A DNA stretch of 4,340 nucleotides. Source: a virus. Its lineage: Duplodnaviria > Heunggongvirae > Uroviricota > Caudoviricetes. Where the stretch lies: IMG/VR virus record IMGVR_UViG_3300029376_000268. The stretch is one strand, 5' to 3'. A program made the translations under genes and the position numbers. The notes beneath the pieces are model-generated. The model searched no databases. It was not told where the DNA came from and worked only from the letters and a program-made list of their open reading frames with translations. The first letter of the stretch is position 1; each line of letters opens with the position of its first letter. Shown here piece by piece: positions 54-4,340 of this stretch.

Positions 54-1448
54 ATGCCATTTAAAAAACTCTCCCGACGCACCTTCCTGACGGCAAGCTC
101 GGCGCTTGCCTTCCTCCATACCCCTTTCGCTCGCGCGCTTCCCGCCCGACAAATCGTTAACATTAACGACTACAACCCACACGACTGGATCGCCTCATTT
201 AAACAAGCCTTCAGCGAAGGGCAAACGGTCGTCGTGCCTGCCGGATTCGTTTGTGAAAATATCAACACCGGCATCTTCATTCCTCCTGGCAAAACGTTGC
301 ACATCCTTGGAAGCCTGCGCGGCAACGGCAGAGGGCGATTTGTCTTACAGGACGGCAGCCAGGTGACAGGGGAGAAGGGCGGCCGTATGCATAACATCAC
401 CCTGGATGTGCGCGGCTCTGACTGCATCATCAAAGGGTTGGCGATGAGCGGTTTTGGCCCGGTAACGCAGATTTATATCGGCGGCAAAAATAAACGCGTC
501 ATGCGCAACTTGACCATCGATAACCTGACCGTCAGCCACGCTAATTACGCCATTTTACGCCAGGGATTTCATAACCAGATTATCGGTGCCAACATCACCA
601 ATTGTAAGTTCAGCGACTTACAGGGCGACGCCATTGAATGGAATGTAGCAATCAATGATCGCGACATTTTGATATCCGACCATGTCATCGAGCGCATCAA
701 CTGTACTAACGGCAAAATCAACTGGGGCATTGGCATAGGCCTTGCGGGAAGTACCTACGATAATAATTATCCGGAAAACCAGGCAGTGAAAAACTTTGTC
801 GTGGCGAATATCACGGGATCAGATTGTCGGCAACTGATCCATGTTGAAAATGGTAAACATTTTGTTATCCGTAATATCAAAGCTCGTAATATCACGCCGG
901 ATTTCAGTAAGAAAGCAGGTATTGATAACGCCACAGTTGCTATTTATGGTTGTGACAACTTTGTGATTGATAATATTGAAATGATTAATAGTGCCGGGAT
1001 GTTAATTGGCTATGGGGTAATTAAAGGCAAATATCTCTCGATACCGCAGAATTTCCGAGTGAATGATATTCAACTGGATAATACTCATCTTGCTTATAAA
1101 TTGCGCGGCATCCAAATCTCCGCCGGGAATGCTGTCTCCTTTGTGGCGCTGACTAACATTGAGATGAAGCCTGCGTCGCTTGAGCTACACAATAAACCGC
1201 AACACCTTTTTATGCGAAATATCAATGTGATGCAGGAATCCTCTGTTGGACCCGCATTGAGCATGAACTTCGACATGCGCAAAGACGTACGCGGTGTCTT
1301 TATGGCGAAAAAAGAAACACTGCTGTCACTTGCAAATGTTCATGCGATGAATGAAAAAGGACAAAGCTCCGTCGATATCGACAGGATTAATCACCATATT
1401 GTTAATGTGGAAAAGATTAACTTTAGATTGCCGGAACGGAGAGAGTAG
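54..1448 (+). CDS. wcaM: Colanic acid biosynthesis protein WcaM; predicted Tat-exported right-handed parallel beta-helix protein of unknown function
   Basis: 464-aa ORF with ATG start and a strong upstream SD. The N-terminus [28 protein letters not shown] has a twin-arginine motif (S-R-R-x-F-L), a hydrophobic core and an AxA site. The body has recurring N-[IL]-T / N-x-T motifs ([38 protein letters not shown]) typical of beta-helix asparagine ladders. Position directly upstream of galF matches the known last gene of the colanic acid cluster. Coordinates include the stop codon. Confidence 0.92.
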
Positions 1449-2554: not shown

Positions 2555-2618
2555 ATAACGGCAGTGAAGATTAGCGGCGAAAGTAATTTGTTGCGAATTT
2601 TCCTGCCGTTGTTTTATA
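2555..2618 (+). terminator. Putative structured element or weak terminator downstream of galF: long-range inverted repeat followed by a T-rich tract
   Basis: AACGGCAG (2557-2564) is the exact reverse complement of CTGCCGTT (2603-2610), extendable to about 10 bp with one G-U pair. The 3' arm is followed by gttttatat. The roughly 38-nt loop is atypical for a rho-independent terminator, so the call is tentative. Confidence 0.25.
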
Positions 2619-2689
2619 TAAACAATCAGAATAACAACGAGTTAGCAACAGGATTATCGTCAAAGTTTTCCAGGATTTTCCTTGTTTCC

Positions 2690-2774
2690 AGAGCGGATTG
2701 GTAAGACAATTAGCTTCTGAATTTTTCGGGTTTAGCGCGAGTGGGTAACACTCGTCACATCGTAGGCATGCATG
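2690..2774 (+). promoter_or_regulatory. Probable promoter region of the O-antigen (rfb) operon, immediately upstream of JUMPstart
   Basis: Established knowledge: the rfb promoter lies just upstream of the JUMPstart element in the galF-rfbB gap. I cannot pinpoint convincing -35/-10 hexamers by eye; a candidate is TTGGTA at about 2699-2704 with an A/T-rich stretch about 17 nt downstream. Exact boundaries are not supported. Confidence 0.3.
2738..2754 (+). other. Small hairpin CGAGTG-ggtaa-CACTCG in the rfb leader
   Basis: Read directly: a 6-bp perfect stem (2738-2743 / 2749-2754) with a 5-nt loop, about 20 nt upstream of JUMPstart. It could be an RNA structure in the 5' leader or a DNA palindrome. 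Confidence 0.3.
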
Positions 2775-2813
2775 CAGTGCTCTGGTAGCTGTAAAGCCAG
2801 GGGCGGTAGCGTG
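2775..2813 (+). promoter_or_regulatory. JUMPstart element (39 bp) containing the ops (operon polarity suppressor) site GGCGGTAG for RfaH-dependent antitermination
   Basis: Sequence CAGTGCTCTGGTAGCTGTAAAGCCAGGGGCGGTAGCGTG matches, as I recall it, the conserved JUMPstart found upstream of polysaccharide operons. The ops core GGCGGTAG is at 2802-2809 (extended GGCGGTAGCGTG to 2813). It lies in the untranslated leader 76 nt upstream of the rfbB start, the canonical position. Confidence 0.85.
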
Positions 2814-2888
2814 CATTAATACCTCTATTAATCAAACTGAGAGCCGCTTATTTCACAGCATGCTCTGAAGTAATATGGAATAAATTAA

Positions 2889-3974
2889 GTGAAAATACTT
2901 GTTACTGGTGGCGCAGGATTTATTGGTTCTGCTGTAGTTCGTCACATTATAAATGATACGCAGGATAGTGTTGTTAATGTCGATAAATTAACGTACGCCG
3001 GAAACCTGGAATCACTTGCAGATGTTTCTGATTCTGAACGCTATTTCTTTGAACATGCGGATATTTGTGATGCAGCTGCAATGGCACGGATTTTTGCTCA
3101 GCATCAGCCGGATGCAGTGATGCACCTGGCAGCTGAAAGCCATGTTGACCGTTCAATTACAGGCCCTGCGGCATTTATTGAAACCAATATTGTTGGTACT
3201 TATGTCCTTTTAGAAGCGGCTCGGAATTACTGGTCTGCACTTGATGGCGACAAGAAAAACAGCTTCCGTTTTCATCATATTTCTACTGACGAAGTCTATG
3301 GTGATTTGCCTCATCCTGACGAGGTAAATAATAAAGAAGGATTACCCTTATTTACTGAGACGACAGCCTACGCACCAAGCAGCCCTTATTCTGCATCAAA
3401 AGCGTCCAGCGATCATTTAGTCCGTGCGTGGAAACGTACCTATGGTTTACCGACCATTGTGACTAATTGCTCTAACAATTATGGTCCTTATCATTTCCCG
3501 GAAAAATTGATTCCATTGGTTATTCTGAATGCTCTGGAAGGTAAAGGATTACCTATTTATGGAAAAGGCGATCAAATTCGCGACTGGCTGTATGTTGAAG
3601 ATCATGCGCGTGCGTTATATACCGTCGTAACCGAAGGTAAAGCGGGTGAAACTTATAACATTGGTGGACACAACGAAAAGAAAAACATCGATGTAGTGCT
3701 CACTATTTGTGATTTGTTGGATGAGATTGTCCCGAAAGAGAAATCTTACCGCGAGCAAATTACTTATGTTGCCGATCGTCCGGGACACGATCGACGTTAT
3801 GCGATTGATGCTGAGAAGATTGGTCGCGAATTGGGATGGAAACCACAGGAAACGTTTGAGAGCGGGATTCGTAAAACTGTGGAATGGTATCTGTCCAATA
3901 CAAAATGGGTTGATAATGTGAAAAGTGGTGCCTATCAATCGTGGATTGAACAGAACTATGAGGGCCGCCACTAA
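2889..3974 (+). CDS. rfbB: dTDP-glucose 4,6-dehydratase (RmlB/RfbB), extended short-chain dehydrogenase/reductase family
   Basis: 361-aa ORF with a GTG start ([14 protein letters not shown]...). It has the N-terminal Rossmann NAD-binding motif TGGAGFIGS, the STDEVYG motif and the catalytic YxxxK (PYSASK). The C-terminal region (...[16 protein letters not shown]...[18 protein letters not shown]) is typical of RmlB. First gene after JUMPstart, as in E. coli/Shigella/Salmonella rfb clusters. Coordinates include the TAA stop. Confidence 0.95.
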
Positions 3975-4340
3975 TGAATATCCTCCTTTTTGGCAAAACA
4001 GGGCAGGTAGGTTGGGAACTACAGCGTGCGCTGGCACCTTTGGGTAATTTGATTGCTCTTGATGTTCACTCTACTGATTATTGTGGTGATTTTAGTAACC
4101 CAGAAGGTGTGGCTGAAACCGTCAAAAAAATTCGTCCTGACGTTATTGTTAATGCTGCTGCTCATACCGCGGTAGATAAGGCTGAGTCAGAACCCGAATT
4201 TGCACAATTACTCAATGCGACAAGTGTTGAAGCGATTGCAAAAGCGGCTAATGAAGTTGGGGCTTGGGTAATTCATTACTCAACTGACTACGTATTCCCT
4301 GGAAATGGCGACACGCCATGGCTGGAGACGGATGCAACCG
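3974..4340 (+). CDS. rfbD: dTDP-4-dehydrorhamnose reductase (RmlD/RfbD), 5' portion; CDS continues beyond the window end
   Basis: ATG at 3974-3976 overlaps the rfbB stop (TAATG). The frame is open to the window end, about 122 codons: [122 protein letters not shown]. It has the Rossmann G-x-x-G-x-x-G-like motif (FGKTGQVG) and YSTDYVF typical of RmlD. Absent from the ORF track only because it has no stop in the window. Confidence 0.92.
   Translation, partial: MNILLFGKTGQVGWELQRALAPLGNLIALDVHSTDYCGDFSNPEGVAETVKKIRPDVIVNAAAHTAVDKAESEPEFAQLLNATSVEAIAKAANEVGAWVIHYSTDYVFPGNGDTPWLETDAT

What the first reader, a model, noticed from the sequence alone, without database searches (positions are those of the whole stretch)
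2775..2813. JUMPstart/ops element in the rfb leader
The 39-bp sequence ending in GGCGGTAGCGTG carries the ops core GGCGGTAG (2802-2809). From established knowledge, ops on the non-template strand pauses RNA polymerase and recruits RfaH, which suppresses termination and polarity across long polysaccharide operons. Its presence 76 nt upstream of rfbB confirms the start of the O-antigen transcription unit. Not novel, but it is the key regulatory signal in this window.
Basis: partly seen in the sequence, partly recalled or inferred. Interest (0 to 1): 0.5.

Follow-up and report, generated by a model that had tools for sequence, protein, structure and literature searches.

The report
JUMPstart/ops RfaH-loading site, rfb leader

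Summary
Confirmed and already known. Window 2775-2813 (+) reads CAGTGCTCTGGTAGCTGTAAAGCCAGGGGCGGTAGCGTG. It matches Rfam RF01707 (JUMPstart) end to end at 60 bits (gathering score 35, E 1.8e-12). The 12-nt ops GGCGGTAGCGTG lies at 2802-2813 on the coding (non-template) strand and is the only copy in the window.

The window is E. coli wcaM-galF-[372-bp spacer]-rfbB-rfbD. It is 100% identical to two complete genomes, and its spacer is identical to strain NU14 (O18 cluster). K-12 MG1655 is identical from 2762 through the rfbB start.

In 22 copies from several enterobacterial genera, operons and plasmids, similarity starts at 2775 and ends at 2813, and the flanks are unrelated. Every annotated copy precedes polysaccharide genes.

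ops carries every base shown experimentally to be needed for RfaH binding and for the consensus pause. rfaH is present in 5426 of 5426 E. coli genomes. RfaH occupancy downstream of the leader ops of the O-antigen unit is published for CFT073, and that paper cites the same for K-12.

One caveat: ops marks the leader, not the transcription start. I predict the promoter about 90 nt upstream (-10 at 2705-2710). The one open point is the role of the covarying 5-bp hairpin in the 5' half.

The parts
2775..2813 (+). 39-nt JUMPstart element
   Evidence: Rfam RF01707 match at 60 bits against a gathering score of 35, E 1.8e-12, full model length. The conserved block has sharp edges at 2775 and 2813 in 22 copies from different genera, operons and plasmids. 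Local BLAST matches start and end at these edges.
2802..2813 (+). 12-nt ops element GGCGGTAGCGTG (core GGCGGTAG at 2802-2809) on the non-template strand
   Evidence: Single exact match in the window on either strand. Positions 1-9 and 11 are invariant in alignment A1. It contains C3, G4, G5, T6, A7 and G8, the bases needed for RfaH recruitment, and T11 and G12, the bases needed for the pause (PMC5995543).
2812..2812 (+). Predicted RNA 3' end at the ops pause (U11). The consensus pause bases are G-10 = 2803, Y-1 = 2812 and G+1 = 2813.
   Evidence: Bases read from the sequence. The pause position at U11 and the consensus-pause match come from PMC5995543 and PMC11001881. Inferred here, not measured.
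2804..2809 (+). Small non-template-DNA hairpin of ops: C3:G8 pair (2804:2809) closing the loop G4-A7, with T6 (2807) flipped out towards RfaH
   Evidence: The minimum-free-energy DNA fold of the 12-mer pairs G2-G4 (2803-2805) with G8-G10 (2809-2811), and so includes the C3:G8 pair 2804:2809 (-0.9 kcal/mol; 13 of 200 shuffles fold as well). The structure of the RfaH:ops complex is in PMC5995543.
2782..2800 (+). Conserved stem-loop in the 5' half: arms 2782-2786 (CTGGT) and 2796-2800 (GCCAG), 9-nt loop
   Evidence: It is the consensus structure of the Rfam model. On A1, 92.7% of cells pair, against 21-64% when the 3' partner is slid. Compensatory changes C-G to U-A (3 sequences) and U-A to A-U (4 sequences) occur, and 0 of 500 shuffles reach the observed covariation score. 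It is thermodynamically weak (-5.6 kcal/mol, z about 0).
2784..2789 (+). Upstream GGTAGC, a direct repeat of ops positions 4-9 (2805-2810), 21 nt apart
   Evidence: These are the only two GGTAGC in the window. The upstream copy is invariant or nearly so in A1, including loop bases. Part of that invariance comes from the search pattern that collected 11 of the 22 sequences.
2814..2888 (+). Downstream leader (75 nt) with a very weak Shine-Dalgarno (GGA at 2877-2879) before the GTG start of rfbB
   Evidence: Duplex energy with the anti-SD is -3.3 kcal/mol for rfbB, against -5.9 to -9.1 for wcaM, galF and rfbD. This fits ribosome recruitment through RfaH (PMC6358824; PMC11001881).
2682..2710 (+). 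Candidate sigma-70 promoter of the rfb unit: -35 TTGTTT (2682-2687), 17-bp spacer, -10 GACAAT (2705-2710), start predicted near 2716-2718
   Evidence: Hexamers and spacing read from the sequence. The tool's stricter consensus scan did not list this site. It is identical in K-12. CTTGTTTCCAG is kept in three of the five sequences of alignment A2 and recognisable in a fourth, an E. coli with a different O cluster. Inter-serogroup homology continues up to about 2713. It agrees with my recollection of a 173-nt leader in E. coli O7 (Marolda and Valvano 1998, not readable here). Prediction only.
2555..2612 (+). Long hairpin followed by a T-tract, 39 nt after the galF stop: probable galF terminator separating upstream transcription from the rfb unit
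   Evidence: RNA fold -31.3 kcal/mol, z -7.45, 0 of 200 shuffles as stable. The inner hairpin was flagged as terminator-like.
2889..3974 (+). rfbB (rmlB), dTDP-glucose 4,6-dehydratase, first gene of the regulated operon
   Evidence: NCBIfam NF007490 at 791 bits, full length. Annotated rfbB in NU14.
3974..4340 (+). rfbD (rmlD), 5' part; its start overlaps the rfbB stop (TAATG)
   Evidence: NCBIfam NF007440, residues 1-122 of 299. Annotation.

Best explanation
The 39-nt JUMPstart element lies in the untranslated leader of an E. coli O18-type O-antigen (rfb) operon. Its 3' third is the ops signal.

RNA polymerase starts at a promoter about 90 nt upstream (predicted). When it has transcribed ops, it pauses with the RNA 3' end at U11 (2812), because ops matches the consensus pause (G-10, Y-1, G+1). 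In the open bubble the non-template strand GGCGGTAG folds into a tiny hairpin (C3:G8), which presents G5 and the flipped-out T6 to the N-terminal domain of RfaH.

RfaH binding releases its C-terminal domain, which refolds into a beta-barrel. RfaH then stays on the polymerase for the whole operon. It excludes NusG, suppresses pausing, backtracking and Rho-dependent termination inside AT-rich, H-NS-coated O-antigen genes, and recruits a ribosome to an mRNA whose first gene has a GTG start and almost no Shine-Dalgarno.

Shown here: the sequence, its strand, its position, its conservation, the presence of rfaH, and identity to K-12. Taken from the literature: the pause, RfaH loading and antitermination. 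Inferred: the promoter position and the translational role at rfbB.
For: - Rfam JUMPstart match at 60 bits against 35, exactly 2775-2813. ops is unique in the window, with 0.16 matches expected by chance even at one mismatch.
- Context is galF, then a 372-bp spacer, then rfbB and rfbD. In NU14, whose spacer is identical, ten co-directional O18 O-antigen genes follow, with only one ops in 32 kb.
- K-12 MG1655 is identical from 2762 to 2900.
- A JUMPstart copy covering at least 80% of the 39-mer is present in 5426 of 5426 E. coli genomes, with a median of three places per genome. Sampled copies precede O-antigen clusters, wza, kpsM-type ABC transporters, wzi, and plasmid rfbB or flippase genes.
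- The 22-sequence alignment shows sharp edges and an invariant ops.
- ops has all bases that mutagenesis showed to be needed for RfaH recruitment and for the pause (PMC5995543).
- rfaH is in 5426 of 5426 genomes. NU14 RfaH has the contact residues K10, H20, R23, Q24 and T68-V75 (compared).
- RfaH ChIP-seq in CFT073 shows loading downstream of the single leader ops of the O-antigen unit and persistence through it; the authors state this agrees with earlier K-12 findings (PMC9765446).
- rfbB has the weakest Shine-Dalgarno in the window. G+C drops from 50% in galF to 43% in rfbB.
Against: - Nothing in the data contradicts the explanation.
- No expression data exist for this exact strain.
- The promoter is only predicted. 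The consensus scan found no strong sigma-70 site in 2620-2775.
- The fold energies of the ops DNA hairpin and of the JUMPstart stem are no better than shuffled sequence, apart from the 12-mer alone (z -2.15). Structure is therefore supported by covariation and published structures, not by stability.
- The role of the 5' 27 nt is not explained by the ops model.
Confidence: 0.95

Rival explanations
1. The element acts mainly as RNA. The leader transcript, with its conserved hairpin and the ops sequence in RNA form, binds RfaH or another factor, or gives rise to a small RNA like RirA from the waaQ leader that titrates RfaH. On this view the non-template DNA is not the key signal.
For: - The stem at 2782-2786/2796-2800 covaries and contains G-U pairs that would be C-A on the other strand, so it is specific to the sense strand.
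- A 19-nt hairpin is too long to form inside a transcription bubble, which favours RNA.
- Rfam files JUMPstart as a cis-regulatory RNA, and Weinberg et al. reported a conserved stem-loop (PMC2864571).
- RirA, a 73-nt RNA from the waaQ 5' UTR that carries ops, is reported to bind RfaH in the presence of polymerase (PMC6358824).
Against: [quoted passage not shown]
- The hairpin is weak (-5.6 kcal/mol, z about 0).
- 4 of 22 copies break the second pair.
- No processed small RNA is known from the rfb leader.
- At most this is an added layer, not a replacement for the DNA signal.
Confidence: 0.15
2. The element is chiefly a recombination junction: a conserved anchor that lets whole O-antigen clusters be swapped by homologous recombination, with regulation secondary.
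For: Homology between E. coli genomes with different O clusters stops at query 296-305, that is window 2812-2821, at or just past the end of ops. A second breakpoint lies near 2713. JUMPstart-headed O-antigen gene fragments sit on IncX3 and IncF plasmids next to IS26 or IS1, and one sits on a ColRNAI plasmid.
Against: - A 39-nt anchor is very short for RecA-dependent exchange, and the long conserved galF gene is the more obvious upstream arm.
- The same element heads unlinked operons (wza, kps, wzi) where no cluster swapping at galF occurs.
- Base-by-base conservation matches the RfaH and pause requirements.
- The boundary is the expected result of a conserved regulatory site next to diversifying genes.
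Confidence: 0.05
3. The match is fortuitous, or the element is a promoter component rather than an elongation signal.
For: In 596 Gb of genomes the loose pattern GGTAG..GGCGGTAGNNTG is common, and 102 of 109 hits outside JUMPstart lie inside long open frames. One paper draws JUMPstart 'within promoter P2' in Klebsiella (PMC3438125).
Against: - The full 39-mer matches at E 1.8e-12.
- It is non-coding and conserved across genera with unrelated flanks.
- No sigma-70-like hexamers overlap it.
- The published title for hly says that RfaH and JUMPstart act 'via a postinitiation mechanism' (Leeds and Welch 1997, cited).
Confidence: 0.01

Closest known systems
JUMPstart element (Hobbs and Reeves 1994; Rfam RF01707) of the E. 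coli K-12 rfb (galF-rfbB) leader
   Same: The 39-mer is identical, and so are the last 13 nt of the leader before it (2762-2774), the 75-nt downstream leader and the rfbB start. The gene order galF-JUMPstart-rfbB is the same. It passes Rfam's gathering score.
   Different: The galF-proximal part of the spacer differs at 16 of 372 positions (95.7% identity). The downstream cluster is O18-type rather than O16. Nothing differs in the element itself.
ops/RfaH system of the waaQ (rfaQ), hlyCABD, kps and F tra operons
   Same: The same 12-nt ops lies on the non-template strand of an untranslated leader, once per unit, ahead of a long, AT-rich, horizontally acquired envelope operon (PMC9765446; PMC6775461).
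   Different: The distance from ops to the first gene is short here (75 nt, against 634 bp for hlyC). I did not retrieve the waaQ, hly or tra copies. In the sampled kpsM-type and wzi copies, ops position 12 is A or C, whereas it is the consensus G here.
JUMPstart upstream of wza (colanic acid operon) about 25 kb upstream in the same genome
   Same: The ops half is the same and the strand relative to its operon is the same. 34 of 39 positions are identical.
   Different: The first stem pair is U-G instead of C-G, the loop sequence differs (CTAAAAA against CTGTAAA), and the flanks are unrelated. The operon it controls is Rcs-dependent; it is listed as a cryptic RfaH target in CFT073.
Hairpin-stabilised (class I, his-type) pause signals
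   Same: A 5-bp stem with a 9-nt loop ends 13 nt (11 nt if two extra G-C/G-U pairs form) behind the RNA 3' end at the pause. From memory, this geometry resembles the his pause hairpin.
   Different: The ops pause is described as biochemically distinct from hairpin-stabilised pauses and as pre-translocated or backtracked (PMC11001881). No evidence here shows that the JUMPstart hairpin affects pausing.

Membership tests
JUMPstart (Rfam RF01707) | Matches the curated covariance model at or above its gathering score over the full length | tested here: met
   60.0 bits against 35, E 1.8e-12, model positions 1-38 of 38, window 2775-2813 +.
JUMPstart (Rfam RF01707) | Conserved 5-bp stem-loop 5' of ops | tested here: met
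   Stem CUGGU/GCCAG is present. Across 22 copies 92.7% of cells pair, with compensatory changes at two pairs.
JUMPstart (Rfam RF01707) | Lies in the non-coding 5' region of a polysaccharide (or hly/tra) gene cluster, in the direction of transcription | tested here: met
   It lies 258 nt after the galF stop and 75 nt before rfbB, on the same strand. The only open frame of at least 40 codons over it is an unsupported 81-codon frame on the opposite strand (2571-2816). The O18 O-antigen operon follows.
ops / RfaH-dependent operon | 12-nt ops GGCGGTAGnnTG on the non-template strand | tested here: met
   GGCGGTAGCGTG at 2802-2813 +, the same strand as rfbB; it is the only copy.
ops / RfaH-dependent operon | Bases needed for RfaH recruitment (C3, G4, G5, T6, A7, G8, with C3:G8 able to pair) and for pausing (G2 at -10, T11, G12) | tested here: met
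   All are present in the sequence. The requirements come from PMC5995543. The DNA fold includes the C3:G8 pair.
ops / RfaH-dependent operon | ops is transcribed, that is, it lies downstream of the promoter in a leader that is not translated | tested here: inconclusive
   The region is non-coding. Only a weak predicted promoter lies upstream (-35 at 2682-2687, -10 at 2705-2710), and the consensus scan found none at its threshold. The start site was not mapped here.
ops / RfaH-dependent operon | Single ops per transcription unit, at its 5' end | tested here: met
   There is one GGCGGTAGNNTG in the 32-kb NU14 locus L001, at the position corresponding to the window element. This is the same pattern as in CFT073.
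ops / RfaH-dependent operon | Cognate RfaH encoded in the genome | tested here: met
   rfaH is annotated in NU14, between tatD and ubiD. Its product carries the ops-contact residues. rfaH DNA is present in 5426 of 5426 complete E. coli genomes, which include the two that are 100% identical to the window.
ops / RfaH-dependent operon | Distal gene expression depends on RfaH and on ops; RfaH occupies the elongation complex downstream of ops | not testable with these tools
   RfaH ChIP-seq is published for the O-antigen unit of CFT073, and its authors state that the result agrees with earlier K-12 findings (PMC9765446). It is also published for O-antigen clusters generally (Wang et al. 1998, cited). 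It applies here through 100% identity to K-12 over 2762-2900.

The most novel reading that the evidence does not exclude
The 5' two-thirds of JUMPstart, which the ops model leaves unexplained, may encode a nascent-RNA hairpin (2782-2800) timed to fold in the RNA exit channel just as the polymerase sits at the ops pause. The 3' end of its stem is 13 nt behind U11.

The hairpin could act as a built-in anti-backtracking device that helps the RfaH-bound, hyper-paused complex to escape. It could also act as a platform for ribosome or NusA loading.

The near-invariant GGTAGC in the stem and loop, a repeat of ops positions 4-9 placed 21 nt upstream, suggests sequence-specific recognition beyond simple pairing.
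Probability: 0.15. Interest if true: 0.45.

Novelty: already known. Interest (0 to 1): 0.1.

Why it matters
The element is the switch that allows full-length expression of an O-antigen operon of about 10 kb, and so of serum resistance and virulence in an O18-type extraintestinal E. coli. Annotating it fixes the 5' regulatory boundary of the O-antigen cluster.

It adds nothing new biologically. The sequence is identical to the K-12 copy that has been studied for thirty years. The only point worth an experiment is what the conserved, covarying hairpin and the upstream GGTAGC repeat do. Published RfaH:ops structures and assays centre on the 12-nt ops and leave this open.

Tried and rejected
- **Genome-wide pattern scan.** Only about 11 were real JUMPstart copies, all from Enterobacterales-type contigs. 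Of the other 109 hits, 102 lie inside long open frames, so they are chance matches. It therefore gave a small comparative set, not a taxonomic survey. The Pasteurellaceae hit (L044) lies inside an opposite-strand open frame and is probably chance, although I had put it in alignment A1.
- **Fold energies.** The DNA and RNA folds of the 39-mer, and the RNA folds of the 5' part and the whole leader, are no better than shuffled sequence (z between -1.0 and +0.5). Thermodynamic stability cannot be used as evidence for the stem.
- **Promoter scan.** The sigma-70 and terminator scan found no promoter between the galF terminator and JUMPstart at its threshold. The promoter I propose rests on weaker hexamers and on conservation.
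- **Papers not held.** Marolda and Valvano 1998 and Leeds and Welch 1997 could not be read. Statements about the O7 leader length are my recollection only.
- **Spurious Rfam hit.** The MIR8001 hit at 2551-2618 (25 bits against 90) is caused by the galF terminator hairpin.
- **Second ops hairpin rejected.** I considered that the upstream GGTAGC forms a second ops-like DNA hairpin. The base at its 'position 3' (2783) covaries with 2799, not with its 'position 8', so I rejected this.

Full report
**Observation**

The window reads CAGTGCTCTGGTAGCTGTAAAGCCAGGGGCGGTAGCGTG at 2775-2813 on the + strand. GGCGGTAG is at 2802-2809 and the 12-nt ops GGCGGTAGCGTG at 2802-2813. The next gene, rfbB, starts with GTG at 2889, so 75 nt intervene. 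Every coordinate in the finding is correct.

The ops pattern GGCGGTAGNNTG occurs once on either strand. Even with one mismatch allowed, only 0.16 matches are expected. A scan of the window against all of Rfam gives one significant hit: RF01707 JUMPstart, at exactly 2775-2813 +, 60.0 bits against a gathering score of 35, E 1.8e-12, over the whole model.

**Context**

The ORFs are:
- wcaM (54-1448)
- galF (1623-2516)
- rfbB, a dTDP-glucose 4,6-dehydratase (2889-3974)
- the start of rfbD (3974 onwards)

All have full-length, above-cutoff NCBIfam matches. The whole window is 100% identical to two complete E. coli genomes. The 372-bp galF-rfbB spacer is 100% identical to strain NU14. In NU14 it is followed by rfbB, rfbD, rfbA, rfbC, an O18-family wzx, an O18ab/ac wzy and four glycosyltransferases, then gnd, ugd and wzzB. 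That 32-kb locus holds only one ops.

K-12 MG1655 is 95.7% identical over the spacer and identical at every base from 2762 to 2900. The K-12 rfb leader and this one are therefore the same sequence through JUMPstart, the downstream leader and the rfbB start.

G+C falls from 50% in galF to 43% in rfbB. This is typical of O-antigen genes.

**Comparative evidence**

The 39-mer finds a copy covering at least 80% of its length in all 5426 complete E. coli genomes, with a median of three places per genome and up to six. It also finds a few dozen copies on plasmids of Escherichia, Klebsiella, Citrobacter, Salmonella and Enterobacter.

Sampled copies precede:
- other O-antigen clusters downstream of galF
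- wza of the colanic-acid operon, including the copy about 25 kb upstream in NU14
- kpsM-type ABC transporters
- a wzi group-1 capsule locus
- plasmid-borne rfbB or flippase genes

Copies from Leclercia, Cedecea, Citrobacter, Intestinirhabdus, Phytobacter, Symbiopectobacterium and an Arsenophonus endosymbiont came from a pattern scan. In L099 the order is galF-JUMPstart-rfbB, in Cedecea galF-JUMPstart and in Leclercia JUMPstart-rfbB.

In an alignment of 22 copies with 10 nt of flank on each side, similarity begins abruptly at CAG (2775) and ends at GTG (2813). The flanks are unrelated. Local BLAST matches from unrelated loci likewise span query 259-296/299, which is window 2775-2812/2815.

One caution applies. 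Eleven of the 22 sequences were collected with a pattern that fixes GGTAG and GGCGGTAG..TG, so invariance at those positions is partly built in. The BLAST-derived copies and the Rfam consensus are independent of it and agree. As a control, 102 of the 109 pattern hits outside JUMPstart lie inside long open frames in unrelated phyla, so they are chance matches. The short pattern alone is not diagnostic; the 39-mer in a non-coding leader is.

**Mechanism**

The published dissection of ops (PMC5995543) reports the following:
- The polymerase pauses at U11.
- G12 is needed for the pause.
- G4, G5, A7 and G8 are essential for RfaH recruitment, and C3 and T6 are important.
- The non-template strand forms a small hairpin closed by C3:G8. 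T6 is flipped into a pocket formed by RfaH H20, R23, Q24 and R73.

All these bases are present here. With the RNA 3' end at 2812, the consensus positions are G-10 = 2803, Y-1 = T2812 and G+1 = G2813. The DNA fold of the 12-mer includes the C3:G8 pair.

Cryo-EM work adds that RfaH hyper-stabilises the pause. Escape then needs anti-backtracking factors, and the extended pause probably serves ribosome recruitment (PMC11001881).

In uropathogenic CFT073, RfaH ChIP-seq shows loading downstream of the single leader ops of the O-antigen unit and persistence throughout it. The authors state that this agrees with earlier K-12 findings. Of 42 ops-like sites in that genome, only the eight in leaders bind RfaH, and all eight are covered by H-NS-StpA filaments, which RfaH counter-silences during elongation (PMC9765446).

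The factor is present. rfaH is annotated in NU14, its product has all listed contact residues, and rfaH DNA is in 5426 of 5426 genomes.

Consistent with the ribosome-recruitment part of the model, rfbB has a GTG start and the weakest Shine-Dalgarno pairing in the window: -3.3 kcal/mol, against -5.9 to -9.1 for the other three genes. The review PMC6358824 also states that the waaQ and rfb operons lack a ribosome-binding site.

**What surrounds the element**

Thirty-nine nucleotides after the galF stop, a long hairpin (2555-2612; -31.3 kcal/mol; z -7.45) is followed by a T-tract. It is probably the galF terminator.

Downstream of it, the best promoter candidate is -35 TTGTTT (2682-2687), a 17-bp spacer and -10 GACAAT (2705-2710), which predicts a start near 2716-2718. 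It is identical in K-12. CTTGTTTCCAG is kept in three of the five sequences of alignment A2 and is recognisable in a fourth, an E. coli with a different O cluster. It also fits my recollection that the O7 leader is 173 nt long (Marolda and Valvano 1998; that paper could not be opened). This remains a prediction. If it is right, ops lies at about +86 to +98 of the transcript.

**The 5' half of JUMPstart**

The Rfam model and Weinberg et al. (PMC2864571) describe a stem-loop. Here it is CUGGU (2782-2786) paired with GCCAG (2796-2800), with a 9-nt loop.

On the 22-sequence alignment, 92.7% of cells pair, against 21-64% when the 3' partner is slid. The two outer pairs show compensatory changes: C-G to U-A in three sequences and U-A to A-U in four. 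None of 500 shuffles reaches the observed covariation score, but four sequences break the second pair.

The stem includes an invariant G-U pair, so it is specific to the sense strand. It is also too long to fit inside a transcription bubble. Both points favour nascent RNA.

It is not especially stable (-5.6 kcal/mol, z about 0).

The 3' end of the stem lies 13 nt behind the RNA 3' end at the pause, or 11 nt if two more pairs form. The hairpin would therefore complete in the exit channel just as the polymerase sits at ops.

The loop and part of the stem carry GGTAGC, an exact repeat of ops positions 4-9 placed 21 nt upstream, and this repeat is nearly invariant. Position 2783 covaries with 2799 rather than with the base that would be its partner in an ops-like mini-hairpin, so the repeat is unlikely to be a second ops hairpin.

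What this half does is not settled by anything I could read. An anti-backtracking or factor-loading role is my speculation. I rate it at about 15%.

**Rivals**

- A purely RNA-level mechanism, such as a RirA-like titrating RNA, is contradicted as the main mechanism by the structural and genetic evidence for non-template DNA read-out. It could still be an added layer.
- A recombination-junction role is suggested because homology between serogroups stops at or just past 2813, and at a second breakpoint near 2713. This is the expected by-product of a conserved site next to diversifying genes, and the same element heads unlinked operons.
- Chance, or a role as a promoter element, is excluded by the E-value, the sharp cross-genus conservation and the lack of overlapping promoter hexamers.

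**Verdict**

The element is a textbook JUMPstart/ops site, identical to the K-12 copy. Novelty: already known. Interest is low (0.1). It is useful as an annotation landmark for the 5' regulatory end of an O18-type O-antigen operon.

Noticed in passing
window 2555-2612 (T-tract to about 2619): A very stable long hairpin (-31.3 kcal/mol, z -7.45) followed by TTTTATAT lies 39 nt after the galF stop. It is probably the galF intrinsic terminator. It also explains the spurious sub-threshold Rfam hit to MIR8001 at 2551-2618. Between this window and K-12 the stem carries several substitutions, not all of them obviously compensatory.
   Followed up: partly
window 2682-2718: Candidate rfb promoter: -35 TTGTTT, 17-bp spacer, -10 GACAAT, start near 2716-2718. 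It is identical in K-12. The motif CTTGTTTCCAG is kept in three of the five sequences of alignment A2 and recognisable in a fourth. The consensus scan did not detect it at its threshold.
   Followed up: partly
window about 2713 and 2813: Homology between E. coli genomes with different O-antigen clusters breaks at two points: just after the predicted -10 (about 2713) and at or just past the end of ops (2812-2821). In strain RM9387 the 60 nt between promoter and JUMPstart are unrelated, although both flanks are conserved. The leader is therefore mosaic.
   Followed up: partly
window 2737-2755: A 7-bp hairpin (GCGAGUG-GGUAA-CACUCGU) lies in the serogroup-variable part of the leader, upstream of JUMPstart. 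K-12 has one substitution in its 3' arm (A to G at 2750), which changes U-A to U-G. Its function is unknown.
   Followed up: no
window 2877-2891 and 3972-3976: rfbB has a GTG start and only a GGA remnant of a Shine-Dalgarno (-3.3 kcal/mol), the weakest in the window. The rfbB stop and the rfbD start overlap as TAATG, which suggests translational coupling.
   Followed up: partly
L126:2501-2538 (kpsM-type) and L127:2501-2538 (wzi): In these E. coli JUMPstart copies, ops position 12 is A or C instead of the pause-promoting G (GGCGGTAGCGTA and GGCGGTAGCGTC). Capsule operons may therefore pause less strongly at ops.
   Followed up: no
L128 (IncX3, Citrobacter), L129 (IncF/IncR NDM-5 plasmid, E. coli), L131 (IncX5), L132 (ColRNAI, Klebsiella): JUMPstart-headed fragments of O-antigen or capsule clusters (rfbB-rfbD-rfbA; flippase plus glycosyltransferases) sit on plasmids. 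The IncX3, IncF/IncR and IncX5 copies lie next to IS1, IS26 or ISSen4, and the IncX3 copy also next to catA1. Polysaccharide genes appear to be mobilised together with their RfaH signal.
   Followed up: partly
L099 (NZ_JBQPOM010000031.1, labelled Vagococcus sp. WN89Y): The contig carries galF-JUMPstart-rfbB, with products 85-87% identical to the E. coli proteins. This is an enterobacterial arrangement in a genome labelled as a Gram-positive, so contamination or mislabelling is probable.
   Followed up: no
L001:13539-14932 against window 54-1448: wcaM is annotated as frameshifted in NU14 but is an intact 464-codon ORF in the window. The window therefore comes from a different strain (100% match to LC-1302-2020 and MMC-J-0105), even though its galF-rfbB spacer is identical to NU14.
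   Followed up: partly
window 800-1100: A low-G+C patch (34-38%) lies inside wcaM, flanked by sequence of 45-57% G+C. It may be a mosaic or recombinant segment.
   Followed up: no
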